Below are positions 1 through 10,827 of a DNA stretch of 64,000 nucleotides, in pieces. The notes under the pieces were generated by a model that ran no database searches, had not been told where the DNA came from, and saw nothing but the letters and a program-made list of their open reading frames with translations. Location: the sequence record MZ234031.1. One strand, written 5' to 3'. The stretch comes from Escherichia phage vB_EcoM-CHD94UKE2. The position numbers were made by a program, and so were the translations under genes. The first letter of the stretch is position 1; every line of letters begins with the position of its first letter.

Positions 1-969
1 ATGAAAACTGTAACTATCAATAAGGGTATCTACTTCGGTAAAGAAATCTCTGGAACTTTTGAGCTCTTAGGTGAATGGTTCCCAGATAATGCTCCGGTAG
101 ATGCACAAGGAGATGGTAAAGTTTTTGTTGAAATTGACGGTAAGCGTCGCGGTGTTTGGGTTTACAAATCAGACATTTCATATGATGGTGTAAAAGTTGA
201 AGAAGTTAAAGAATCATATGAAGATATGAAAACCCGCATTAATAAAAGATTTAATGTTATGGGAATGATGACGAATGGTATTATTAACGGAAACATTCGT
301 TCATTAATTATCTCTGGTGCGGCGGGTATTGGTAAAACGTATTCTTTAGATAAAGCTTTGAATAAAGCAAATGATAATGGATACATTGAATATAAAAGCA
401 TTAACGGTAAAATCTCCGGTATCGGTCTTTATGAACAACTTTGGAATAATCGTGAAGAGAATTCTGTCCTTTTGATTGATGATGTGGATGTTTTCTCTGA
501 TATGGACATTCTTAATCTTCTGAAAGCTGCTCTGGACACTGGAGAGACCCGTAAAGTCTGCTGGAGCACCGCATCTTCTTACTTAGAAGAAAAAGGCATT
601 GAGCGTGAGTTTGAATTTAAAGGAACGATTGTTTTTATCACAAACGTTGACATTGACCGCGAATTAGACCGTGGTACTAAACTTGCTCCACATTTACAAG
701 CATTAGTGTCCCGCTCGGTTTATTTGGATTTGGGTGTTCACACTAATGAAGAAATTATGGTCAGGGTTGAAGATGTTATTCTTTCAACTGACATGATGCA
801 AAAGCGCGGTCTTTCTGATGAAGAAACTTATAAAGCATTATCATGGATGAAAGTTAATGTTAATCGTTTACGCAATGTTTCACTGCGTACTGCTCTTTAT
901 CTTGCTGACTTTATTATGACCGACAAAAACGGTTGGGAAGAAATTGCTGAGGTTACTCTTCTGAAATAA
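1..969 (+). CDS. P-loop NTPase (AAA-like ATPase), nrdC-upstream region protein
   Basis: 322-aa ORF from ATG at window position 1 (5' end may be cut by window edge); Walker A GAAGIGKT and Walker B LLIDDVD. Confidence 0.6.
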   Translation: MKTVTINKGIYFGKEISGTFELLGEWFPDNAPVDAQGDGKVFVEIDGKRRGVWVYKSDISYDGVKVEEVKESYEDMKTRINKRFNVMGMMTNGIINGNIRSLIISGAAGIGKTYSLDKALNKANDNGYIEYKSINGKISGIGLYEQLWNNREENSVLLIDDVDVFSDMDILNLLKAALDTGETRKVCWSTASSYLEEKGIEREFEFKGTIVFITNVDIDRELDRGTKLAPHLQALVSRSVYLDLGVHTNEEIMVRVEDVILSTDMMQKRGLSDEETYKALSWMKVNVNRLRNVSLRTALYLADFIMTDKNGWEEIAEVTLLK

Positions 970-1070
970 TTCATAAGAGGACTTCTATGACAAAAAGGCA
1001 GTTCAGAAATAGATTATATGGACTGCCATTAAAAAGATGACTAGAATTAAACTGGTGAATGGAGGTAATG

Positions 1071-1373
1071 ATGTTATACTCAAAGGCTCGTGAAATTTAC
1101 GAAACTAAAATTAAAGAAGCAGTATTTAAGTTCGCAACGACAATGCGATGGACAAATGACTGGGAGTATTCAAAAAATCATAAGAAGCCCATGGTGACAA
1201 GAAAGGCTCATATGTTAGTGTTAATAGACCGTGAGCAGATTAAAGCCCGAGAAGCCCTCCAGAATCATAAAAAGGCTGCCTTTGAATGGTTTATGGATAA
1301 CACTGCTCCTGAGACTAAGAAAGCGGTAAGCGCATGGTTCAGTGGAAAAAATTGTGAAAGAAGTTTCTTTTAG
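1071..1373 (+). CDS. hypothetical protein (~100 aa)
   Basis: ORF 1059-1373; ATG at 1071 is 5 nt after GGAGG; start choice uncertain. Confidence 0.4.
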   Translation: MLYSKAREIYETKIKEAVFKFATTMRWTNDWEYSKNHKKPMVTRKAHMLVLIDREQIKAREALQNHKKAAFEWFMDNTAPETKKAVSAWFSGKNCERSFF

Positions 1374-1375
1374 TG

Positions 1376-1405
1376 GTTTACAAGACTGTTCCTCTGTGGT
1401 ACTAT
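1376..1405 (+). promoter_or_regulatory. T4-type early promoter (GTTTAC-N18-TACTAT)
   Basis: -35 GTTTAC 1376-1381, -10 TACTAT 1400-1405; near-identical copy at 27491-27520. Confidence 0.6.
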
Positions 1406-1433
1406 ACAACTATCAACTACGGAGGAACACAAA

Positions 1434-1961
1434 ATGAACGCTAAAGATATTTTCAACCTGGTAAATTACAACGATGGTAAATTTAAATCTGAAGCACAAA
1501 GTAAGTTCTTTAATGACATCTCAATCGAAGGTGAAATCACGGTTGACGGAGGACAAATTTACAAATCTCGTTGGAATTGGATCGTTATTATCGATGAGAT
1601 TGGTATTGTAGAAATTTACAAGAATACGAATAAAAATCGTACATTACACTGGTCTCGTGATACTAACGAACAGTACAAAAAGGATAAAGCATCTAAATTA
1701 TCTCGTGTAACTCAAGAAGATATTGAGTTCATCAAGAAAGATATTTTGATGTATGATAACTTAATTGCTGAAGAGCAAGCTGTTATTGATAAATTTGATG
1801 AGATTAAAGCTTCTCGTGAAATTCCTGATTTTATGAAAGAATCAGTAAATGAACGATACACTCTCATTTCAGAGCGTATTGAAACTTACAAAAAGCAAAG
1901 AGCTGAACGCCAGAATACTCTTCGGAAGTTTGAAGAACGGTTAAAGACGGTACTCGCATAA
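1434..1961 (+). CDS. hypothetical protein (175 aa), C-terminal helical region
   Basis: ATG preceded by GGAGG; downstream of early promoter. Confidence 0.55.
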   Translation: MNAKDIFNLVNYNDGKFKSEAQSKFFNDISIEGEITVDGGQIYKSRWNWIVIIDEIGIVEIYKNTNKNRTLHWSRDTNEQYKKDKASKLSRVTQEDIEFIKKDILMYDNLIAEEQAVIDKFDEIKASREIPDFMKESVNERYTLISERIETYKKQRAERQNTLRKFEERLKTVLA

Positions 1962-2016
1962 CCGCTTTATACCAAGGATGGTATAATGGTTCTAAGCCCT
2001 TTTAATTGAGATTATT

Positions 2017-2424
2017 ATGAAACAGTTGATAATTAAAAGATTGAATTTATTGATATGTTGTTTATGTATAGCAATTGCATATGGTTATTACGCAATTAAT
2101 GATTATATGCATTATAAAGATTATGATGTTACTGTAGTTAATACCATTACAGGAACACAAGGAAAAGGGTCTAGTTTATCGTTTATTGCCGTATATGAAC
2201 TCAAAGATGGTTATAGATTTAGTGAATATATTTCCCCAGAGATGTATTCATCAATAGAAAAAGGTGATAATATTACTGTAAGTTTACGTCCTTTCGACGT
2301 AAAACAGACATTGTTTGATAATATTGTTTGGTTCTTTGGAATGGTATTAGTTCAATCTGTGTGTGGTGCTTATATAGTCTGTTCCATCTTATTCTGTATA
2401 TTTAGTAAAATTGAAATTGAGTGA
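2017..2424 (+). CDS. hypothetical membrane protein (135 aa)
   Basis: ORF with N- and C-terminal hydrophobic segments. Confidence 0.5.
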   Translation: MKQLIIKRLNLLICCLCIAIAYGYYAINDYMHYKDYDVTVVNTITGTQGKGSSLSFIAVYELKDGYRFSEYISPEMYSSIEKGDNITVSLRPFDVKQTLFDNIVWFFGMVLVQSVCGAYIVCSILFCIFSKIEIE

Positions 2425-2431
2425 GGAAAAT

Positions 2432-3319
2432 ATGTCAGTAGTAATTAATAATGTCAATGCAGTAATTAAATCTTTAGTTAATAAAAAATTAAATGAATGG
2501 ACTGTACTTCGTCGTGGAGAGCCAGATAAATTTTTTCATAGATTTAACCCAACTTTGGATTTGAATGTTATTGACAGAGATGTTCATGCTGAAATTTTAG
2601 ATAAATTTAAAGTTGATATTGGGTTTGGGTTAGATAAACATTTGCAACGAACAAACGGATCTGGAATGGGTTTATCTAATCGCATCATGAAAGCCCTTAA
2701 TAAAATTGGAGCGTTGTCTCGTATTAATGCGAGTGAAATCCTTCGCAATTATAATAAAGGATATGACCTTTATGGTCGACTAATGCCGAAATTATCATTT
2801 GACCAAATGATTGCGGATTTGTGGGAAAATCAACGACGATTATTAGCATTAGGCGCTCGATTAGCTAAAGGTCTAGATAAACAAATGATTTTTAAGACCA
2901 ATAATACAGAAGACCTTAAATGCTTTAAATTTAGTACTCGTGGAGATGATTATTACATCAGAGCTCGCTCTACAGATTATGTTAATATGGGGCATCATCT
3001 CTGTTTAGCTTTTGAAGTTTTAAAAGAAGCCGGAACATTAGAATATGTGTCTGGTGCTAAATGTCCGATTGGTTCAAATTGCATTTTAATTTATCGCCCA
3101 GATGAATCCAGTTCAACTAAATTACCTACAAAACCTGTACCAGTTCGCAGTAATGAAAAACATTCTGAACAAATTGCTTATTTTAATAAGCAGATTGAAG
3201 AGCTAAATATTTCTATTCAGCAATATGATGATGAAATTTTCAGACTATCTGGATTGAGTAGTAAAGCTAAATCTGAGCGTGAAAAATTAATTAAAATCGT
3301 TGATTTACTTAAATCTTAA
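2432..3319 (+). CDS. hypothetical protein, paralogue A of a 4-gene array (295 aa)
   Basis: ATG 2432 after TGAGGAAAAT; C-terminal amphipathic helix; ORF-track start 2411 is TTG. Confidence 0.55.
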   Translation: MSVVINNVNAVIKSLVNKKLNEWTVLRRGEPDKFFHRFNPTLDLNVIDRDVHAEILDKFKVDIGFGLDKHLQRTNGSGMGLSNRIMKALNKIGALSRINASEILRNYNKGYDLYGRLMPKLSFDQMIADLWENQRRLLALGARLAKGLDKQMIFKTNNTEDLKCFKFSTRGDDYYIRARSTDYVNMGHHLCLAFEVLKEAGTLEYVSGAKCPIGSNCILIYRPDESSSTKLPTKPVPVRSNEKHSEQIAYFNKQIEELNISIQQYDDEIFRLSGLSSKAKSEREKLIKIVDLLKS

Positions 3320-3327
3320 GGAACACC

Positions 3328-4356
3328 ATGAAAACTCGTTCTCAAATTGAAGATATGGTTCGTAATGCCAGCTATACTCGTGATGTTATGACATTTTTGT
3401 GTGAAAATAATTTAGACCCTGATAAAGTTAATCGTGTTATTCATCACTTTAAGTATACGAATAGCAGTGAATGGGTGCGTAATTTTAGTAAAGCAGGGTA
3501 TATTACACAAATGACTGCTCGTGAACAGCTCACCGATTTCTGTAAAACTATTGATTATAAAAATCCTTTGATTGTTCAAGGCGTTGGTCAAAGTAAGGTC
3601 GATTTATCATCTGGATTTTTCAATCCAAATCATTATCGTATTGAATGGAGATTTATTGCTCTATTCCGTAAACAATTAAAGCAAATTTTGTCTACTGCTA
3701 GTCGATTAAAAGGCTCTGATATTAACTTAAAGAACCTGAAATTTGATGGTTATACTCTTCAGATGGAAGTAAGACCGTTAAAAGAAAATAATAGAACTGC
3801 ACGAATTAGCTTTAAGCCTAATACTAAAAATTCTCTTTCAATTTGTGAATGTCTTAAATCACAGCTGACAGAAGCATTTAAGTATATGGATGTTGTTGCT
3901 GCTGTTCAATCTAAGATTTTACCTCGTTTTGAGCGAAATTGGGAACATACAACAACATATGAACTTGATATGATCGTTTCATTTAAATATGAATTTTTGA
4001 GAAAGGATGAAATTGTTCAAGAGAAAAAGCAGGAAGTGCAAGATACCTTAAATTTAAATTTATCCAATTACTTATCAAACGATCCTAAATTTTGGATGTA
4101 TAGCTCAAGCAATATAGATGCATGTAAACTTAATAAAGTGAGTTTTCTTCCTACTGAAAATTCAAATTTTAAACCTGTAGAAAAATGGCACGCTGACGCG
4201 ATTGAGAAGTCTCTTAAGGCAGTAGATGATGAACTCGTTAAAGCGACCAATGAAGTGCTAGAAGCTGAAAAGGCGTTAGAACAAGCTCAGTCAAGGGTTC
4301 AAAATCTGACAAAGCAACGTTCTAAACTGAACAATGCACTAAATGCACTGAACTAG
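3328..4356 (+). CDS. hypothetical protein, paralogue B (342 aa)
   Basis: AAGGAA SD; N-terminus MKTRSQIEDM; C-terminal coiled-coil-like segment. Confidence 0.6.
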   Translation: MKTRSQIEDMVRNASYTRDVMTFLCENNLDPDKVNRVIHHFKYTNSSEWVRNFSKAGYITQMTAREQLTDFCKTIDYKNPLIVQGVGQSKVDLSSGFFNPNHYRIEWRFIALFRKQLKQILSTASRLKGSDINLKNLKFDGYTLQMEVRPLKENNRTARISFKPNTKNSLSICECLKSQLTEAFKYMDVVAAVQSKILPRFERNWEHTTTYELDMIVSFKYEFLRKDEIVQEKKQEVQDTLNLNLSNYLSNDPKFWMYSSSNIDACKLNKVSFLPTENSNFKPVEKWHADAIEKSLKAVDDELVKATNEVLEAEKALEQAQSRVQNLTKQRSKLNNALNALN

Positions 4357-4385
4357 TTTACTTTGCCACAAGGATGTGGTATAAT
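4356..4385 (+). promoter_or_regulatory. T4-type early promoter (GTTTAC-N18-TATAAT)
   Basis: -35 GTTTAC 4356-4361, -10 TATAAT 4380-4385, upstream of ATG 4414. Confidence 0.6.
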
Positions 4386-4413
4386 GTTTTTACTTTCTAC
4401 TGAGGAGATTATT

Positions 4414-5415
4414 ATGACTCGTAACGAATATATCAAATCATTCAATAGCGTTATTGATGATAAAGCTATACCGATGTTTGGCCAAAATAGCGTTCTTTCT
4501 ATTATCAATCAATGGCTCAATAGTGTTGATGCAAGTATTGTTTCTTCTACTAAATTTATTCATGAAATTCGTAAAATTTCTAGCCGTGTAGATAAAGATG
4601 TTATCAAGAAAACCTTTAAAGAGTCTCGTCTTCTTTCATATTTGGTTAATCGGGATATTCTTGGTAATTTTGGGAAAGAAATTAAACGAACTAAAGATGT
4701 AGTAGGATACAATTGGTTCGGTGATGTTAATTCTTATCATCTTAATATTAAAGAAGACCCTGAGAATATTTTTACTCGTCGTTGGATCAGTAATTTCAGA
4801 CTTTTTAAGAAACAAATTCTAAAATCAGCTTCTAAATTATGTTATGGCGATTATCGTCAAATTCATCCTTTGGCTTCTGATATGATTATCATAAAAGAAT
4901 ATGAACTTGATAAAAATAAAGTATCTATTTTTGTGAATTATGGATTTTTTACACCAGAAACTAACCAAAAGAATATTAATAAATTTTTCTCAATTGCTAG
5001 CACTATAACTCGTCAATTAGAGACCGCATTACTTTGTATGGAAACAGTAGAAAATATTCATACATATCCTTTTAAGAATATATGCGGTTGGGAAGGATAT
5101 AAACTCGTAATTAGCCTTCGTGAAGTGAAATGTGCTTATTCACCTACTGATAAAGAAATTTACCAACAAAAATGTGATGAAATTGTGAATACTCCTAAAG
5201 AAGAAACTACCCTTGAGGAACTAATGGAATGTCTTGATGATTCACCTGAACCGATAGAAATTCGTCCAGAAGTTATTGCACTAGAAAAAGCTTATAAAGA
5301 AGTTCTAGAAATTTCTAATAAAGCGCAGAAAGAATATGAGCAGGCTAAAAGGATTTGGGAAGAATCTGTTAATCGTCTTGATCGTCTGGAACAAGCTTTA
5401 CAGTTAATTAAGTAA
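4414..5415 (+). CDS. hypothetical protein, paralogue C (333 aa)
   Basis: ATG 4414 after GAGGAG; ORF-track start 4363 lies inside the promoter; C-terminal coiled-coil-like segment. Confidence 0.55.
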   Translation: MTRNEYIKSFNSVIDDKAIPMFGQNSVLSIINQWLNSVDASIVSSTKFIHEIRKISSRVDKDVIKKTFKESRLLSYLVNRDILGNFGKEIKRTKDVVGYNWFGDVNSYHLNIKEDPENIFTRRWISNFRLFKKQILKSASKLCYGDYRQIHPLASDMIIIKEYELDKNKVSIFVNYGFFTPETNQKNINKFFSIASTITRQLETALLCMETVENIHTYPFKNICGWEGYKLVISLREVKCAYSPTDKEIYQQKCDEIVNTPKEETTLEELMECLDDSPEPIEIRPEVIALEKAYKEVLEISNKAQKEYEQAKRIWEESVNRLDRLEQALQLIK

Positions 5416-5467
5416 TTTAAAGCCAAGGATGGCTCGGAGTATAAATCATTAACCAAGTGAGAAGAAC

Positions 5468-6394
5468 ATGAAAACTCGTAAACATTATATTGATTATTTT
5501 GACAGTCTTATTACTAAACATCGTAATTATCAGATAGGACACAGAGCAGTAATCAATAATATTCTTCGTGATTTTTTAGACTATATTGGATGGGAAAACC
5601 ATATTTGTAAAGATACACAAAATGCGTATTCACATTCTCTTGGTTCTTTGCTCGAGTGGTTCAAACGTTCCCGATTACTATCTTCTGTGATAGCTGTTAA
5701 TAATGTTAAAAAATTTATGTATCCAAGCTACATTGAGACTAATGTATCAAATGCTAGTGTTGTTACATTTAATATTATTAACGACGTGAAAAGAACTTAT
5801 TTAGAAGAATGGTTTTCTAAAGATAGTAAAGAAAAATTTGCTAGTGAATTTTCACACGAATTCAATAATAACGTGAATATGCTTTTTAAGCATTCTCGTA
5901 GACTGTTTTGTCATGGTGATAACCGTACTATTAATGTGAATGTAAAAGACTGGGTTACGGCTAAATTCACTCCATCGTCCCAGAATGGGCAATTTGAATT
6001 GTCAATTATCATTTGTGCTCCGCACGAGATATATAAAAACCTTCCGTATATGAAACCACGCGAAGCTAATAAACACAATGAAACTATTAGTTCTTTGGCT
6101 TATAATTTACGCGTGTTATTATCTGATATGGATGTAGTCAAATCCTTTGATGATAATACGAATTATGGTCTTTCGCTGTTTGAAACTAAATTTGTTATTA
6201 AATTAAAGGACCCTAGTGAATTTAAACCTACACCAAAATCCAATCATGGAAATGATACTATGAAAGAAGAACGCGAATATCTCAGTGCCCGTTTGATTGA
6301 AGTTGAAAAACAGATTGAAGAGCATACTAAAGTTCTTAAGGCTTTAACCGCCAAAGCAAATGGTTTACGTAATGCTATTGAGGTATTGAAATGA
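5468..6394 (+). CDS. hypothetical protein, paralogue D (308 aa)
   Basis: N-terminus MKTRKHYIDYF resembles paralogue B; C-terminal amphipathic helix. Confidence 0.6.
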   Translation: MKTRKHYIDYFDSLITKHRNYQIGHRAVINNILRDFLDYIGWENHICKDTQNAYSHSLGSLLEWFKRSRLLSSVIAVNNVKKFMYPSYIETNVSNASVVTFNIINDVKRTYLEEWFSKDSKEKFASEFSHEFNNNVNMLFKHSRRLFCHGDNRTINVNVKDWVTAKFTPSSQNGQFELSIIICAPHEIYKNLPYMKPREANKHNETISSLAYNLRVLLSDMDVVKSFDDNTNYGLSLFETKFVIKLKDPSEFKPTPKSNHGNDTMKEEREYLSARLIEVEKQIEEHTKVLKALTAKANGLRNAIEVLK

Positions 6395-6780
6395 AAAAGC
6401 GTTTATTAGAAGACATTGCAGCTTCAAGTAATTCCAGTTTAATTAAAATTATTATGGCTGGTGAGGAAGATGATATGGAAATGCGTGGAAAGATTCACGG
6501 CTGCGACGATTTAGATTTTAAACCTCCAGCATGGGATGCTATTATGGCTATGGTTGAACGACGTGAAAGAGCTTCTAAAAACGTTCCTAATTGCCCTGAA
6601 TGCGGTACTGAACAAGTTCAATTGATTAACTGGCGTAAACCAGAGCTTGAATATAAATGCCGTCAATGTAAACATAAATTCAGTAAGCATGCTCCGGAAA
6701 TGGTTAAATTGCCTGACTCTACTGAGTTCTTTAAAGAACTTGTGAGTGTTCAACCAATGCCTAATAATATTTTGGATTAA
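6391..6780 (+). CDS. zinc-ribbon protein (129 aa)
   Basis: CPECG...CRQCKH four-Cys motif; ATGA overlap with upstream gene. Confidence 0.55.
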
Positions 6781-6782
6781 AA

Positions 6783-7025
6783 ATGACCAAGCGTAAAGAA
6801 TATATGGAGGCTGCTGAAAAGGCAGTCCGTGAATTAGCAATAGCTTATTATAATGAACATGGTAAATTTCCTGATAGATACAGCGTGCTTAAATCTGCTT
6901 TAACTCGTTCATATAAAAATATGCTATCAGAAGTAAGTGATATTATATACAAACATAAAGAACAAACGGGCCAAAGTCTTGATTACGACGAGACTTTTAA
7001 ACAAGTACTAGGAATTAAGGAATAA
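6783..7025 (+). CDS. hypothetical protein (80 aa)
   Basis: ORF immediately upstream of nrdC. Confidence 0.45.
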
Positions 7026-7026
7026 T

Positions 7027-7290
7027 ATGTTTAAAGTATATGGTTATGATAGCAACATTCATAAATGTGTGTATTGCGATAATGCAAAACGTCTTTTGAC
7101 CGTGAAGAAACAGCCGTTTGAATTTATCAACATTATGCCGGAAAAAGGTGTTTTTGATGATGAGAAAATTGCTGAGCTTCTGACTAAACTAGGTCGTGAT
7201 ACTCAAATCGGCTTGACAATGCCCCAGGTATTTGCTCCTGATGGAAGTCATATTGGTGGATTTGACCAACTGCGAGAATATTTTAAATGA
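7027..7290 (+). CDS. nrdC: glutaredoxin/thioredoxin NrdC
   Basis: 87 aa, CVYC active site, AAGGAA SD; matches T4 NrdC by recall. Confidence 0.9.
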   Translation: MFKVYGYDSNIHKCVYCDNAKRLLTVKKQPFEFINIMPEKGVFDDEKIAELLTKLGRDTQIGLTMPQVFAPDGSHIGGFDQLREYFK

Positions 7291-7502
7291 TGCTCGAAGG
7301 AACTGACTATATTCATGATTACCGCGGAAGCGCGGTATATGTAGGTGATGAAGTTGCAGTTTATTATGGGTATAGAACTTTGATGACAGCCAAGGTTATT
7401 CAAATTAAAAATAATCGTGCTAAACTCGAAGTTTATTATTCTAATGGTGAAAAGTCTATTTCTAAGTGGAAATACGGCGATTGTATGGTTAAATTGGGGT
7501 AA
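7287..7502 (+). CDS. hypothetical protein (71 aa)
   Basis: ATGA overlap with nrdC stop. Confidence 0.45.
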   Translation: MMLEGTDYIHDYRGSAVYVGDEVAVYYGYRTLMTAKVIQIKNNRAKLEVYYSNGEKSISKWKYGDCMVKLG

Positions 7503-7504
7503 AT

Positions 7505-7675
7505 ATGATTTACGATATTAATGTATCAAGAACTCCGTCAATGGTTACTATTCCAGCCGAAGAACTAGATCGTCTTCAGAAAATTGAAGAGCTTCTTTGG
7601 GAAATTGAATCTGATTTGCCATCAGGATTAGAATCCTGGATTGATTATGAAGAACTTAATAAGCTTCGGGGTTAA
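7505..7675 (+). CDS. hypothetical protein (56 aa)
   Basis: short ORF, acidic; below 60-aa track cutoff, found by reading the sequence. Confidence 0.3.
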   Translation: MIYDINVSRTPSMVTIPAEELDRLQKIEELLWEIESDLPSGLESWIDYEELNKLRG

Positions 7676-7727
7676 ACCTTGGTGGGCGGCTAGATGGGAA
7701 ACTGTAGAGCCAGAGCCGGAAGAACCG

Positions 7728-7757
7728 GTTTACATTGATGAAGAAACAGTATATAAT
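7728..7757 (+). promoter_or_regulatory. T4-type early promoter (GTTTAC-N18-TATAAT)
   Basis: -35 7728-7733, -10 7752-7757, upstream of ATG 7798. Confidence 0.5.
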
Positions 7758-7797
7758 GAACCAACGATAAATGACTTAATTGATATGGAGATGGGAC

Positions 7798-8283
7798 ATG
7801 ATTACAGTAGATAAGTGGTTTAGAATTAATCGTGTTGATACAGGGCTATGTAATTACTGGCCGGAACTTAGTGCAGGTACTGTCTTTAAAGTTCGTGAAC
7901 TTGCAAAAGAATGCGAAGATGATATAGAACCTGATACTGGAATTATTGAAATTGAACTTTCCGACGGAAAGATTATTAACATCTATGATAAGCCAATTAC
8001 ATACTGGTGTTTGTGGAATACTGAATCCGTTGAAAATGGCGAAATTGAAGAAGTTGTAGAGAGAACTAGCCAAGATGTTCAGAAGCCTAAAGCCGCTTTT
8101 CAAGGTGAACGTATTTCATACGCATTAGCTAAATTAGCTGCGCAAGAAAATAACGATGGCTATGAAGGTAACCTGATGCAAGCTGCCGCAGAGTACATTG
8201 AATGGCTTGAAACTCAAATTTCTTTTTCTGACCAAAAGATTCGGCAATATAAGCGATTGCATCAAATGTTTTACAATACTTGA
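7798..8283 (+). CDS. pin: Pin-like protein (161 aa), assigned by size and position only
   Basis: ATG 7798 after GGAG; 161 aa between nrdC and gene 49 as in T4; ORF-track start 7780 is TTG. Confidence 0.45.
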   Translation: MITVDKWFRINRVDTGLCNYWPELSAGTVFKVRELAKECEDDIEPDTGIIEIELSDGKIINIYDKPITYWCLWNTESVENGEIEEVVERTSQDVQKPKAAFQGERISYALAKLAAQENNDGYEGNLMQAAAEYIEWLETQISFSDQKIRQYKRLHQMFYNT

Positions 8284-8499
8284 AAAAACTCAAAATTCTT
8301 TTTCTGACAGGACATTTTAATGAAAACCGAATTGGTTTATACTGAAAAGTTAAATGGCGGTAAGGTTTGGAAACTTTTTATTAAAGGACATTCTACGGAC
8401 CCTCATATGACCACTTGCGTAGGAACCTATTCTCGTCCTACTAAAAAGATGATTCGACAGTATAAACGATTGCATCGAATGTTTTACAATACTTAAAAA
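8213..8499 (+). repeat. imperfect direct repeats: 3' end of pin duplicated around a 135-bp unique insert
   Basis: 8213-8233 vs 8288-8308 (20/21); 8238-8287 vs 8451-8499 (about 45/50, all transitions). Confidence 0.8.
8320..8496 (+). CDS. small chimeric ORF (58 aa) sharing C-terminal 15 aa with Pin-like protein
   Basis: C-terminal MIRQYKRLHRMFYNT vs Pin KIRQYKRLHQMFYNT; weak SD. Confidence 0.35.
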   Translation: MKTELVYTEKLNGGKVWKLFIKGHSTDPHMTTCVGTYSRPTKKMIRQYKRLHRMFYNT

Positions 8500-8500
8500 T

Positions 8501-8539
8501 AATAAATACCCTTATCTATTTAAGGTAAGGGTATTTATT
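8501..8539 (+). promoter_or_regulatory. 14-bp perfect inverted repeat abutting the gene 49 start codon (possible RBS-sequestering hairpin)
   Basis: AATAAATACCCTTA 8501-8514 pairs with TAAGGGTATTTATT 8526-8539; ATG at 8540. Confidence 0.5.
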
Positions 8540-9013
8540 ATGTTATTGACTGGCAAATTATACAAAGAAGAAAAACAAAAATTTTATGATGCACAAAATG
8601 GTAAATGCTTAATTTGCCAACGAGAACTAAATCCTGACGTTCAAGCTAATCATCTTGATCATGACCATGAATTAAATGGACCAAAAGCAGGAAAGGTACG
8701 TGGATTGCTTTGTAATCTCTGCAATGCTGCAGAAGGTCAAATGAAGCACAAATTTAATCGTTCTGGCTTAAAGGGACAAGGTGTTGATTATCTTGAATGG
8801 TTAGAAAATTTACTTACTTATTTAAAATCCGATTACACCCAAAATAATATTCATCCTAACTTTGTTGGAGATAAATCAAAGGAATTTTCTCGTTTAGGAA
8901 AAGAGGAAATGATGGCCGAGATGCTTCAAAGAGGATTTGAATATAATGAATCTGACACCAAAACACAATTAATAGCTTCATTTAAGAAGCAGCTTAGAAA
9001 GAGTTTAAAATGA
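8540..9013 (+). CDS. 49: endonuclease VII (Holliday-junction resolvase)
   Basis: 157 aa, MLLTGKLYKEEKQ..., Cys cluster; matches T4 gp49 by recall. Confidence 0.9.
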   Translation: MLLTGKLYKEEKQKFYDAQNGKCLICQRELNPDVQANHLDHDHELNGPKAGKVRGLLCNLCNAAEGQMKHKFNRSGLKGQGVDYLEWLENLLTYLKSDYTQNNIHPNFVGDKSKEFSRLGKEEMMAEMLQRGFEYNESDTKTQLIASFKKQLRKSLK

Positions 9014-10827
9014 CAATTGAAAAAGAAATTGAAGGATTGATTCATAAAACTAATAAAGACCTTTTAAACGAGAATGCTAATAAAGATTCTCGTGTTTTTC
9101 CAACTCAACGGGACCTTATGGCTGGTATTGTGTCTAAACACATTGCCAAAAATATGGTCCCGTCTTTTATTATGAAAGCGCATGAAAGCGGAATTATTCA
9201 TTTCCATGATATTGATTATTCCCCTGCTCTTCCATTTACTAATTGTTGTTTAGTAGATTTAAAAGGAATGCTTGAAAACGGATTTAAGCTTGGTAATGCA
9301 CAGATTGAAACTCCTAAATCAATTGGCGTTGCTACTGCAATTATGGCGCAAATTACTGCACAGGTTGCTTCTCACCAATACGGCGGAACGACTTTTGCTA
9401 ATGTAGATAAAGTACTTTCTCCTTATGTTAAACGCACCTATGCAAAACATATTGAGGATGCAGAAAAATGGCAAATCGCTGATGCGTTAAATTATGCTCA
9501 ATCTAAAACAGAAAAAGATGTATACGATGCATTCCAAGCTTATGAATATGAAGTAAATACTCTCTTTAGTTCAAACGGACAGACTCCTTTTGTAACAATT
9601 ACATTTGGTACGGGAACTGACTGGACTGAACGAATGATTCAGAAAGCAATTCTGAAAAATCGTATTAAAGGTCTCGGTCGTGATGGGATAACTCCTATTT
9701 TCCCTAAGCTTGTTATGTTCGTTGAAGAAGGCGTTAATCTTTATAAAGACGATCCGAACTATGATATTAAGCAGCTTGCTTTAGAGTGTGCAAGCAAAAG
9801 GATGTATCCTGATATTATTTCAGCTAAGAACAATAAAGCTATCACCGGCTCATCTATTCCTGTTTCTCCAATGGGTTGCCGCAGTTTCTTGAGCGCGTGG
9901 AAAGATTCAACCGGTAATGAAATTCTTGATGGACGTAATAATCTTGGTGTTGTAACACTGAATCTTCCTCGTATTGCGTTGGATTCTTATATTGGAACAC
10001 AGTTCAATGAACAGAAATTTACTGAATTGTTCAATGAGCGAATGGATTTATGTTTTGAAGCTTTGATGTGTAGAATTAGTTCCTTAAAAGGAGTTAAAGC
10101 GACTGTTGCTCCTATTCTTTACCAAGAAGGTGCATTCGGGGTTCGTCTTAAACCTGATGACGACATAATTGAGTTATTTAAAAACGGTAGAAGTTCAGTG
10201 TCTTTAGGATACATTGGTATTCATGAATTGAATATTCTTGTCGGTCGTGATATTGGACAAGAAATTTTAACTAAAATGAATGCTCGTCTTAAACAGTGGG
10301 CTGAAAGAACTGGGTTTGCTTTTAGTTTGTATTCGACTCCTGCTGAAAACCTTTGTTATCGCTTCTGTAAACTTGATACAGAAAAATATGGAAGTGTAAA
10401 AGATGTTACCGATAAAGGATGGTACACTAACAGTTTCCATGTTTCAGTAGAAGAAAATATTACTCCGTTTGAAAAGATTTCTCGCGAAGCCCCATATCAT
10501 TTCATTGCGACAGGTGGTCACATTTCTTATGTTGAACTTCCTGATATGAAAAATAACCTAAAAGGTCTTGAGGCTGTCTGGGATTATGCTGCACAACATT
10601 TAGATTATTTTGGTGTTAATATGCCAGTAGATAAGTGTTTTACATGCGGAAGTACCCATGAAATGACTCCTACTGAAAACGGATTTGTTTGTTCTATTTG
10701 TGGAGAAACTGATCCTAAAAAGATGAACACAATAAGAAGAACATGCGGCTATCTTGGAACTCCTAGCGTTGTTCCATGGAATTTAGGTAAAATGAAAGAA
10801 ATGGTAAAACGAGTAAAACATGCATAG
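9010..10827 (+). CDS. nrdD: anaerobic ribonucleoside-triphosphate reductase NrdD (uninterrupted)
   Basis: 605 aa continuous ORF, C-terminal glycyl-radical motif RRTCGYLG; no intron. Confidence 0.95.
   Translation: MTIEKEIEGLIHKTNKDLLNENANKDSRVFPTQRDLMAGIVSKHIAKNMVPSFIMKAHESGIIHFHDIDYSPALPFTNCCLVDLKGMLENGFKLGNAQIETPKSIGVATAIMAQITAQVASHQYGGTTFANVDKVLSPYVKRTYAKHIEDAEKWQIADALNYAQSKTEKDVYDAFQAYEYEVNTLFSSNGQTPFVTITFGTGTDWTERMIQKAILKNRIKGLGRDGITPIFPKLVMFVEEGVNLYKDDPNYDIKQLALECASKRMYPDIISAKNNKAITGSSIPVSPMGCRSFLSAWKDSTGNEILDGRNNLGVVTLNLPRIALDSYIGTQFNEQKFTELFNERMDLCFEALMCRISSLKGVKATVAPILYQEGAFGVRLKPDDDIIELFKNGRSSVSLGYIGIHELNILVGRDIGQEILTKMNARLKQWAERTGFAFSLYSTPAENLCYRFCKLDTEKYGSVKDVTDKGWYTNSFHVSVEENITPFEKISREAPYHFIATGGHISYVELPDMKNNLKGLEAVWDYAAQHLDYFGVNMPVDKCFTCGSTHEMTPTENGFVCSICGETDPKKMNTIRRTCGYLGTPSVVPWNLGKMKEMVKRVKHA

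What the first reader, a model, noticed from the sequence alone, without database searches (positions are those of the whole stretch)
2432..6394. Tandem array of four divergent paralogue-like genes with C-terminal amphipathic helices
Four consecutive ORFs (295, 342, 333 and 308 aa) share architecture: similar N-termini (MKTRSQIEDM, MTRNEYIKSF, MKTRKHYIDYF), a ~260-aa body, and a C-terminal 30-40-residue heptad-like helix (e.g. ...LEAEKALEQAQSRVQNLTKQRSKLNNALNALN; ...YEQAKRIWEESVNRLDRLEQALQLIK). One has its own early promoter. I cannot assign a function from sequence. Tandem diversified early paralogues in phages are often host-takeover or counter-defence factors, but that is inference only.
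Basis: partly seen in the sequence, partly recalled or inferred. Interest (0 to 1): 0.6.

Follow-up and report, generated by a model that had tools for sequence, protein, structure and literature searches.

The report
T4 nrdC.3–nrdC.6 anti-defence paralogue array
The four neighbouring genes are this T4-like phage's nrdC.6, nrdC.5, nrdC.4 and nrdC.3, which prove to be old, strongly diverged copies of one phage-only gene; nrdC.5 is already known to disarm the bacterial Dsr1 immune protein, so the other three become candidate immune-evasion genes.

Summary
The window is a Tequatrovirus (T4-like) genome. The four ORFs are orthologues of T4 NrdC.6 (A, 2432-3319), NrdC.5 (B, 3328-4356), NrdC.4 (C, 4414-5415) and NrdC.3 (D, 5468-6394), 92-99% identical to T4.

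Pairwise similarity is negligible, and Pfam files them in three separate families. Iterative profile searches started from any one of the four nevertheless converge on the same set, with no hit among about 676 decoy ORFs. AlphaFold models of A and B share one topology: a helix pair, then ββαββ, a disordered linker and a C-terminal heptad helix. Both models hit the same single-copy proteins of other T4-like genera. So they are true diverged paralogues. The family is found only in T4-like phages (26 clusters among 1.84 billion representatives). It has one copy in most genera sampled and three or four in coliphage genera. B, C and D evolve faster than their neighbours but under purifying selection; A does so only between genera.

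Published work (Srikant et al., eLife 2022) shows that T4 nrdC.5 alone restores infection of cells carrying Dsr1, a SIR2 NADase. How it does so is unknown. The most likely reading is a family of early protein inhibitors of host immune sensors. That step is inferred, not shown.

The parts
2432..3319 (+). Gene A, 295 aa: orthologue of T4 NrdC.6 (Pfam PF26899, PHROG 2257). It is the most divergent member of the superfamily.
   Evidence: It is 97% identical to T4 NrdC.6 over 259 aa. It has 105 homologues, all PF26899. The model has pLDDT 77.4. It is linked to B/C/D by P0257 and the single-copy proteins of IME523 and PM2.
3328..4356 (+). Gene B, 342 aa: orthologue of T4 NrdC.5 (Pfam DUF7235/PF23882, PHROG 2351). 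The T4 protein is the published anti-Dsr1 factor.
   Evidence: It is 94% identical to T4 NrdC.5 and scores 405.6 bits against PF23882, whose cut-off is 30. The function comes from the literature. The model has pLDDT 68.9, with the core at 61-220 scoring about 80-90.
4414..5415 (+). Gene C, 333 aa: orthologue of T4 NrdC.4 (Pfam PF26897, PHROG 1435).
   Evidence: It is 99% identical to T4 NrdC.4. It matches PHROG 1435 at E 5.6e-168. Its homologues carry PF26897.
5468..6394 (+). Gene D, 308 aa: orthologue of T4 NrdC.3 and a paralogue of C (also PHROG 1435).
   Evidence: It is 92% identical to T4 NrdC.3. It matches PHROG 1435 at E 6.4e-101. HHalign of C against D gives probability 97.8% and E 1.3e-12 over 213 columns.
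4357..4385 (+). Sigma-70/T4-early-like promoter consensus upstream of gene C (TTTACT, 17 nt, TATAAT, with TG before the -10).
   Evidence: It matches 10 of 12 consensus positions in the promoter scan. Function was not tested.
2798..3094 (+). Conserved core of A (residues 123-221): a helix pair carrying the motif NQRRLLALGARLAKG, followed by β-β-α-β-β.
   Evidence: The elements are seen in the DSSP assignment of the model. The motif is invariant in the A family. It aligns with the equivalent region of B, C and D.
3640..3984 (+). Conserved core of B (residues 105-219): a helix pair (FRKQLKQILSTASRLKG) followed by β-β-α-β-β.
   Evidence: The elements are seen in the DSSP assignment of the model and in the B-family alignment. 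They occupy the same position as in A in the superfamily alignment.
3164..3313 (+). C-terminal helical hairpin of A (residues 245-294), ending ...EREKLIKIVDLLKS.
   Evidence: Model; heptad statistics. This is the most conserved block of the A family. It aligns with the other C-termini only through intermediates; a direct HMM test was not significant.
4177..4350 (+). C-terminal long heptad helix of B (residues 284-341), ending ...QRSKLNNALNALN.
   Evidence: Model. Its heptad contrast ranks 1 of 60. The conserved residues are N326, Q330, K333, L334, A337 and L341.
5260..5412 (+). C-terminal heptad helix region of C (about residues 283-333), ending ...NRLDRLEQALQLIK.
   Evidence: The C-terminal-module HMM matches residues 294-343 of the 343-aa ORF, which correspond to 284-333 of C. 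L325 and A328 are invariant across B/C/D. This region was not modelled.
6233..6391 (+). C-terminal heptad helix region of D (about residues 256-308), ending ...[13 protein letters not shown].
   Evidence: The C-terminal-module HMM matches residues 256-308. Its heptad contrast ranks 2 of 60. This region was not modelled.

Best explanation
The four ORFs are this Tequatrovirus's nrdC.6, nrdC.5, nrdC.4 and nrdC.3.

Shown here: they are ancient tandem paralogues of one protein superfamily found only in T4-like phages. Each has an N-terminal helical region, a conserved helix pair followed by a ββαββ unit, a disordered linker, and a conserved C-terminal heptad (coiled-coil-type) helix.

Shown in the literature for the 94%-identical T4 orthologue: NrdC.5 is sufficient, when supplied in trans, to let a T4 deletion mutant plaque on cells carrying the Dsr1 SIR2 NADase defence.

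Inferred: the family consists of non-enzymatic, early-made protein inhibitors. The variable globular body binds a host immune protein. For NrdC.5 the target would be Dsr1, most plausibly its TPR sensor, occupied before the late-made capsid trigger appears (as DSAD1 does to DSR2). The conserved C-terminal helix oligomerises the inhibitor or docks it on a shared partner. NrdC.6, NrdC.4 and NrdC.3 would then neutralise other host defence proteins, not yet identified.
For: Identity: the region is 100% identical to Tequatrovirus genomes. The four proteins are 92-99% identical to T4 NrdC.3-NrdC.6.

Superfamily:
- HHalign C-D: probability 97.8%.
- An exhaustive HMM search with a merged B/C/D profile found only 26 clusters among 1.84 billion representatives. 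They include intermediates such as P0257 at E 9e-8.
- P0257 scores 41 bits against the A profile, 23 bits against B and 14.5 bits against C/D, all colinear.
- Iterative searches from A, B, C or D all converge on the same 283 sequences, with no true decoy among about 676 decoy ORFs.
- With the C-terminal 80 residues removed, B still reaches C and D. A comes out just short of the inclusion cut-off: E 1.4e-4 at an assumed database size of 1e5, which is about 1e-6 at the real size of 962.

Structure:
- The A and B models have the same element order. Secondary-structure agreement along the alignment is 73%, against a 39% mean for shifted controls.
- Both models hit PM2 A0A0A0PZG4, Mineola A0A2Z4QAR2 and Cronus A0A2S1GM98 at E 1e-4 to 4e-7.

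Accessory, fast-evolving character:
- Between genera, amino-acid identity is 46-49% for A, 23-33% for B and 44-51% for C. For nrdC, gp49 and nrdC.10 it is 79-89%.
- Within the genus, dN/dS for B, C and D is 0.16-0.33, against 0.00-0.12 for most flanking genes; A is 0.06-0.14, like its neighbours.
- Copy number is 1 in Kanagawavirus, Mosugukvirus, Marfavirus, Kagamiyamavirus and a Klebsiella phage. It is 3 in Mosigvirus and in the Dhakavirus- and VR7-like loci, and 4 in Tequatrovirus.

Function:
- nrdC.5 counteracts Dsr1 and is dispensable on MG1655 (PMC9391042).
- Dsr1's TPR sensor is triggered by a major capsid protein (preprint PMC12803255).

No enzyme signature: there are no matches in Pfam beyond the DUF, nor in NCBIfam, PADLOC or PDB sequences.
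Against: - No binding or mechanism data exist for any member. The NrdC.5 effect on Dsr1 could be indirect.
- A, C and D have no phenotype on record.
- The A link is weak without intermediates: HHalign of A against the others is not significant, and the C-terminal-module HMM does not detect A.
- C and D were not modelled.
- The proteins are basic (pI 9.1-9.3 for A, B and D). That would also fit nucleic-acid binding.
- Members are sometimes broken in nature: a T4 nrdC.6 frameshift, a split C gene in L006, and a B-D deletion fusion, P0161. Individual copies are therefore dispensable.
Confidence: 0.6

Rival explanations
1. They are paralogues, but only NrdC.5 is a counter-defence factor. The other three are redundant or decaying duplicates with little present function.
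For: Natural disruptions exist. The T4 reference has a 1-nt deletion that frameshifts nrdC.6 and removes its C-terminal helix. The C gene is split in L006. P0161 is a B-D fusion that deletes C. T4 clones lacking nrdC.5 grow normally on MG1655.
Against: All four are kept intact in most of the 461 Tequatrovirus-type records that cover the region. A, B and C/D types are conserved in synteny across genera at 23-51% identity. dN/dS is 0.06-0.33, which is purifying selection and not neutral decay. Each family has invariant motifs.
Confidence: 0.15
2. They are paralogous early host-takeover or nucleic-acid-binding proteins that act on host or phage DNA/RNA or on the transcription or translation machinery. 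The Dsr1 phenotype of NrdC.5 would be an indirect consequence, for example delayed or altered expression of the trigger.
For: The pI is 9.1-9.3 for A, B and D. The genes sit in an early-gene cluster with a promoter-like site. No mechanism has been published for the Dsr1 rescue.
Against: No nucleic-acid-binding domain was detected by Pfam, NCBIfam or PDB profiles. The genes are dispensable on laboratory hosts. The very narrow, host-range-correlated distribution and the fast divergence are typical of arms-race genes, not of core takeover functions.
Confidence: 0.15
3. They are four unrelated ORFans whose shared length and coiled-coil tail are coincidental. This is the refutation the first reader named.
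For: Pairwise BLASTP and phmmer are near chance. Pfam files them in three separate families. HHalign of A against the others is not significant.
Against: C-D HHalign gives 97.8%. Iterative searches converge from all four starts without decoy hits. The B-C-D link survives removal of the C-terminal helix. The A and B models have matching topology and shared BFVD hits. In other genera a single family member occupies the same genomic slot.
Confidence: 0.04

Closest known systems
T4 NrdC.5 (Pfam DUF7235 / PF23882), the anti-Dsr1 accessory protein of Srikant, Guegler & Laub, eLife 2022 (PMC9391042)
   Same: Gene B is its orthologue: 94% identity over the full length, the same genomic slot, and 405.6 bits against PF23882.
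   Different: Nothing material for B. A, C and D are not members of PF23882 (D scores 11.4 bits against a cut-off of 30). They are related to it only at superfamily level.
T4 NrdC.4 / NrdC.3 (Pfam PF26897, PHROG 1435) and NrdC.6 (Pfam PF26899, PHROG 2257): 'conserved hypothetical proteins'
   Same: C, D and A are their orthologues at 99%, 92% and 97% identity.
   Different: The databases treat these as families unrelated to DUF7235. The analysis here joins all of them in one superfamily. In the T4 reference sequence NrdC.6 is frameshifted and lacks the C-terminal helix present here.
DSAD1 (SPbeta-like phages), inhibitor of the DSR2 SIR2 NADase
   Same: Working analogy only. It is a phage protein without enzymatic domains that neutralises a defence-associated sirtuin whose C-terminal sensor recognises a late structural protein. 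DSAD1 binds the sensor domain (abstracts listed).
   Different: No sequence or fold similarity was seen: DSAD1-like proteins do not appear among the BFVD hits of A or B. The host, phage group and target (DSR2 rather than Dsr1) all differ. Direct binding by NrdC.5 has not been shown.
Clustered accessory counter-defence genes of T4 (the dmd-tifA-adfA 'anti-TA island'; internal proteins IPI/IPIII)
   Same: These too are early, non-essential, host-range-determining genes clustered in hyperplastic regions and lost by microhomology deletions.
   Different: Those clusters hold unrelated genes. Here the cluster is one gene family expanded in tandem, 1 to 3-4 copies.

Membership tests
DUF7235 / PF23882 (NrdC.5 family) | Full-length match to the Pfam model above the gathering score (30 bits) | tested here: met
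   B scores 405.6 bits over residues 1-342. For the other three the feature is not met: D scores 11.4 bits, and A and C have no hit.
DUF7235 / PF23882 (NrdC.5 family) | Orthology to T4 nrdC.5: high identity and the same genomic position between nrdC.6 and nrdC.4 | tested here: met
   94% identity over 342 aa. The gene order is the same as in AF158101.
DUF7235 / PF23882 (NrdC.5 family) | Ability to restore phage growth on cells expressing Dsr1 | not testable with these tools
   This was shown only for the T4 protein, expressed in trans (PMC9391042).
PF26897 / PHROG 1435 (NrdC.4-NrdC.3 family) | Significant full-length match of both C and D to one family profile | tested here: met
   Against PHROG 1435, C has E 5.6e-168 and D has E 6.4e-101. 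HHalign C-D gives 97.8%. C homologues and the D-containing fusion P0161 carry PF26897.
PF26899 / PHROG 2257 (NrdC.6 family) | Full-length match to the family | tested here: met
   A matches PHROG 2257 at E 3.3e-152. All 105 homologues carry PF26899.
Proposed NrdC.3-6 superfamily (A+B+C+D) | Profile searches from each member family reach the others without false positives | tested here: met
   Searches from A, B, C and D all converge on A(108)+B(83)+C(76)+D(6)+10 intermediates, with no true decoy among about 676. With bodies only, B-C-D converge and A reaches E 1.4e-4 at an assumed database size of 1e5.
Proposed NrdC.3-6 superfamily (A+B+C+D) | Common fold of the globular body | tested here: inconclusive
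   The A and B models share a helix pair plus ββαββ, a linker and a C-terminal helix. Secondary-structure agreement is 73% against 39% for controls, and they share BFVD hits at TM 0.35-0.50. The two models could not be superposed directly.
Proposed NrdC.3-6 superfamily (A+B+C+D) | Conserved C-terminal heptad helix ending (Q/E)R.KL..A(L/I)..LK | tested here: met
   Heptad contrast ranks 1, 2, 4 and 7 of 60. L325 and A328 are invariant in B/C/D. A aligns through intermediates, but a direct HMM test of A was not significant.
DSAD1-type sirtuin-defence inhibitors | Sequence or fold similarity to DSAD1 | tested here: not met
   No such protein appears among the top 50 BFVD matches of either model. 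No specific pairwise comparison was run.
DSAD1-type sirtuin-defence inhibitors | Direct binding to the sensor domain of the defence sirtuin, blocking trigger recognition | not testable with these tools
   This needs complex prediction or biochemistry. Only the analogy is proposed.
Thioredoxin/glutaredoxin (the name given in many GenBank records) | Match to a thioredoxin-fold family | tested here: not met
   Many records label all seven nrdC.x ORFs 'thioredoxin'. None of the four matches a thioredoxin Pfam or NCBIfam model. The name was propagated from the gene symbol.

The most novel reading that the evidence does not exclude
The array is a multi-headed inhibitor set. Each paralogue's variable body would be tuned to a different host pattern-recognition sensor, for example variants of the TPR capsid sensor that Dsr1 shares with Avs7 and with thousands of proteins carrying other effectors. 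The conserved C-terminal coiled-coil helix would let the paralogues homo- or hetero-oligomerise into one early-made complex that blinds several capsid-sensing defences before late proteins appear. Copy number (1 to 3-4) would then track the diversity of such sensors in the host species.
Probability: 0.15. Interest if true: 0.8.

Novelty: new member of a known kind. Interest (0 to 1): 0.5.

Why it matters
T4 is the reference phage, yet about half of its genes have no function. One of these four genes is a published but mechanistically unexplained inhibitor of the Dsr1 sirtuin defence. If NrdC.6, NrdC.4 and NrdC.3 belong to the same superfamily, three more candidate counter-defence genes can be tested with existing T4 genetics and defence libraries. 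It would also give a conserved scaffold (body plus coiled-coil tail) on which to map specificity. Finally, it offers an example of a counter-defence gene that expanded in tandem, parallel to host sensor diversification. The databases currently split the family into three unrelated DUF-type entries and many GenBank records mislabel the genes 'thioredoxin'; both could be corrected.

Tried and rejected
- Direct all-against-all BLASTP and phmmer gave near-chance scores except a weak C-D match. They cannot decide paralogy.
- HHalign of family alignments: C-D is clear, B-C/D is borderline (probability 15-32%, colinear), and A against the others is not significant.
- A C-terminal-module HMM built from B/C/D does not detect A's C-terminus. 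A's helix can be called homologous only through intermediates.
- P0161 first looked like a colinear B/D recombinant, which would have been evidence for homologous exchange. The alignment showed it to be a non-colinear deletion fusion, B ~146-277 joined to D ~137-308. It was rejected as evidence of paralogy.
- I first read D as a Tequatrovirus-only duplicate of C. Mosigvirus JN02 carries a D-type copy and no C-type copy, so this was corrected.
- PADLOC, NCBIfam and PDB sequence profiles gave nothing above noise. Rfam found nothing in 1-9000.
- DNA repeats in the region are only short 17-22 nt matches, for example the shared ATGAAAACTCGT start of B and D.
- A DNA-mimic (Ocr-like) reading was rejected: the proteins are basic or neutral, not acidic.
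- The upstream 256/261-aa ORFs in IME523 and PM2 were tested as possible extra members. They are unrelated.

Full report
**What is at the coordinates.**
The window's first 9 kb carries one long run of + strand genes. Four consecutive ORFs lie at 2432-3319 (A, 295 aa), 3328-4356 (B, 342 aa), 4414-5415 (C, 333 aa) and 5468-6394 (D, 308 aa). Each ATG is preceded by a Shine-Dalgarno sequence.

The region is 100% identical to several Tequatrovirus genomes, for example Escherichia phage vB_EcoM-G3F7. It matches 508 phage records, 461 of them over at least 80% of its length.

Compared with the annotated T4 genome:
- A is NrdC.6, 97% identical over 259 aa.
- B is NrdC.5, 94% identical.
- C is NrdC.4, 99% identical.
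- D is NrdC.3, 92% identical.

So the finding concerns known but almost uncharacterised T4 genes. Many GenBank records call them 'thioredoxin'. That name is copied from the gene symbol: none of them matches a thioredoxin model.

**Checking the observation.**
- B and D begin MKTR and C begins MTR. T2 and R3 are invariant in 30 B/C/D-family sequences. A lacks the motif.
- AlphaFold2 models were built from family alignments. A has pLDDT 77.4 and pTM 0.65. B has pLDDT 68.9, with its core at about 80-90.
- Each model shows a disordered linker followed by a C-terminal helix. In B it is one 58-residue helix (284-341). In A it is a hairpin (245-271/276-294).
- The last 35 residues of the four proteins have the 1st, 2nd, 4th and 7th strongest a/d heptad contrast among 60 C-termini of + strand ORFs in the window. 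Shuffle p values are <0.001 to 0.031.
- A sigma-70-type site with an extended -10 lies at 4357-4385, upstream of C. This is a consensus match only.

**Are they paralogues?**
Direct comparison cannot decide. The best pair is C-D, at 23% over 173 aa with E 0.01.

The databases split them. PHROGs puts C and D together in family 1435, B in 2351 and A in 2257. Pfam has three separate families: PF26899 for A, PF23882/DUF7235 for B, and PF26897 for C and D.

Family-profile comparison gave:
- C-D: clear, with HHalign probability 97.8% and E 1e-12 over 213 columns.
- B against C/D: borderline but colinear over about 240 columns, P 5e-4.
- A against the rest: not significant.

The decisive material came from an exhaustive HMM search of 1.84 billion cluster representatives with a merged B/C/D profile. 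Only 26 clusters scored E ≤ 1e-3. Among them were full-length, 310-350-aa intermediates.

One intermediate, P0257, scores 41 bits against the A profile, 23 bits against B and 14.5 bits against C/D, always colinear. Its motifs combine those of A and B. It has NANRRLFLTLAARLCKGDNRFMKFKAN, close to A's NQRRLLALGARLAKGLDKQMIFKTN, and it ends ...EVFRLSSMCAKMKAQRFKLTKAIEALNA.

I then ran iterative profile searches. The database held 962 sequences: all family members plus about 676 real decoy ORFs from T4-like genomes. The inclusion cut-off was E 1e-4 at an assumed database size of 1e5. Searches started from A, B, C or D all converged on the same set: 108 A, 83 B, 76 C, 6 D and 10 intermediates. No true decoy appeared even at E 10.

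With the C-terminal 80 residues removed, B still recruits C and D. A lands at E 1.4e-4, about 1e-6 at the real database size. The relationship therefore does not rest on the coiled-coil tail alone. A remains the weakest link.

**Structure.**
The two independent models have the same order of elements:
- A: helix pair 123-132/134-144, then β165-170, β173-178, α186-199, β204-209, β217-221, then linker and C-terminal helices.
- B: helix pair 105-115/117-127, then β144-148, β157-162, α169-185, β190-201, β209-219, then linker and C-terminal helix.

Mapped onto the 21-sequence superfamily alignment, the secondary structures agree at 73% of aligned positions. Shifted controls average 39% and never exceed 55%.

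In BFVD, A hits its own family first. It then hits the single-copy proteins of Enterobacter phage IME523 (E 3e-7, TM 0.50), Pectobacterium phage PM2 (2e-6), Acinetobacter phages, Klebsiella phage Mineola, Erwinia phage Cronus and Citrobacter phage Merlin. B hits Mineola (4e-7), Cronus (2e-6) and PM2 (4e-6). These are the same targets.

**Distribution and evolution.**
The family occupies one syntenic slot, between nrdC.10/nrdC.8 and nrdC.2/nrdC.1/nrdC. The copy numbers below refer to the ±6-7 kb examined around that slot.

| Copies | Phages |
|---|---|
| 1 | Kanagawavirus IME523, Mosugukvirus PM2, Marfavirus F48, Kagamiyamavirus EcS1, Klebsiella phage K65 |
| 3 (A, B, C types) | Dhakavirus- and VR7-like loci |
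| 3 (A, B, D types) | Mosigvirus JN02 |
| 4 | Tequatrovirus |

The whole 64-kb window holds no fifth member.

Divergence between genera:
- A, B and C are 46-49%, 23-33% and 44-51% identical.
- nrdC, gp49 and nrdC.10 are 79-89% identical.

Within Tequatrovirus, dN/dS for B, C and D is 0.16-0.33, against 0.00-0.12 for most neighbours. A is 0.06-0.14, like its neighbours. D occurs as two alleles only 61-62% identical, with dS about 1.

Taken together, B, C and D are functional genes under purifying selection that evolve faster than their neighbours. A diverges fast between genera but not within this genus. The region is mosaic and copy number varies, which is the usual signature of accessory host-interaction genes.

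**Function.**
Only four papers in the searchable library mention nrdC.3-nrdC.6, and one is decisive. Srikant, Guegler and Laub (eLife 2022, PMC9391042) found that an evolved T4 clone carrying compensatory deletions could no longer infect ECOR17. Deleting dsr1 from the host restored infection. Cloned dsr1 protected MG1655 against that clone. Expressing nrdC.5 alone in trans restored plating. The deleted genes are dispensable on MG1655.

Dsr1 is a SIR2-domain NADase. A 2026 preprint (PMC12803255) reports that its TPR sensor, shared with Avs7, is triggered by a phage major capsid protein. No paper gives a mechanism for NrdC.5 or any function for NrdC.3, NrdC.4 or NrdC.6.

**Most likely mechanism (inferred).**
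The proteins have no enzymatic signature. They have a variable globular body and a conserved coiled-coil tail, and they are described as early genes.

The simplest model is a stoichiometric inhibitor. The body would bind the immune protein. For NrdC.5 that would be Dsr1, plausibly its sensor, before late capsid protein accumulates. This is analogous to DSAD1 acting on DSR2. The tail would oligomerise the inhibitor or dock it to a shared partner. The paralogues would then address other defences.

My estimates:
- The four are one superfamily: about 0.9.
- The T4 result for NrdC.5 carries over to B: high, at 94% identity.
- A, C and D are counter-defence factors: about 0.5.
- Inhibition is by direct binding: about 0.35.

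Rivals are that only NrdC.5 matters and the others are redundant, that the family binds nucleic acids (pI about 9 for A, B and D) and acts on Dsr1 indirectly, or that the four are unrelated ORFans. The last is disfavoured by the tests above.

**Novelty.**
The genes and the NrdC.5 phenotype are known. What the analysis adds is that the four neighbours, filed as three unrelated families, form one T4-like-phage-specific superfamily that expanded from one to three or four tandem copies. That nominates NrdC.6, NrdC.4 and NrdC.3 as candidate counter-defence genes. I rate it a new member of a known kind, of moderate interest.

Noticed in passing
window 3170-3335, compared with L002 (T4 AF158101) 9990-10155 on the minus strand: The T4 reference sequence has a 1-nt deletion (GAGCTG-ATATT against GAGCTGAATATT) in nrdC.6. 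The annotated T4 protein (275 aa) is therefore frameshifted and lacks the conserved C-terminal helix found here and in other phages. The downstream DNA is still about 97% identical. This is either a laboratory-strain mutation or a sequencing error.
   Followed up: yes
P0161 (299 aa, from a 167,058-bp contig); corresponds to about window 3763-4160 joined to about 5876-6394: This is a natural deletion variant that fuses B residues ~146-277 to D residues ~137-308 (junction NKVN|MLFKH). It removes the end of B, all of C and the start of D. It fits the microhomology deletions described for T4 in PMC9391042.
   Followed up: partly
L006 (IMGVR_UViG_2974742932_000001) 8950-9982: In this Tequatrovirus genome the nrdC.4-type gene (C) is split into two ORFs of 193 and 158 aa, apparently by a frameshift.
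   Followed up: no
window 5468-6780; L004 and L006 10033-11260: D (nrdC.3) and the adjacent nrdC.2 exist as deeply divergent alleles within Tequatrovirus, while flanking genes are 98-100% identical. D is 61-62% identical at the amino-acid level with dS about 1; nrdC.2 reaches dS 1.19. This is a local mosaic or recombination hot spot. Mosigvirus JN02 carries a D-type copy but no C-type copy.
   Followed up: partly
window 969-1059, compared with L001 1270-1989 and L003 4837-5556: Related phages carry a 239-aa 'putative endonuclease' ORF, probably a mobile homing-endonuclease gene, between nrdC.10 and nrdC.9. The window has only a 90-nt gap there.
   Followed up: no
window 2000-6800 (annotations of matching GenBank records): Many records annotate all seven nrdC.x ORFs under this stretch as 'thioredoxin'. 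None of the four proteins studied matches a thioredoxin family. The name was propagated from the gene symbol nrdC.N.
   Followed up: yes
window 3640-3984 (core of B): Below the significant hits, the B model's BFVD matches at E 0.016-0.11 are repeatedly phage tail-completion, tail-terminator, neck and head-tail connector proteins (TM 0.29-0.35 relative to the target). This could mean the ββαββ body resembles a phage structural fold.
   Followed up: no
window 1-969: The nrdC.10 homologue (322 aa) gives weak P-loop/STAND-type NTPase matches (nSTAND3, AAA_16, AAA_14; E 1e-4 to 3e-4, all below the gathering scores). It is far better conserved between genera (79%) than the four genes studied.
   Followed up: no
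window 6391-6780: The nrdC.2 homologue here is 129 aa with zinc-ribbon-like CxxC pairs (Zn_ribbon_8, E 7e-6, below the cut-off). T4's annotated nrdC.2 is 104 aa, and some relatives have 98-122 aa. Its start overlaps the stop of D (ATGA).
   Followed up: no
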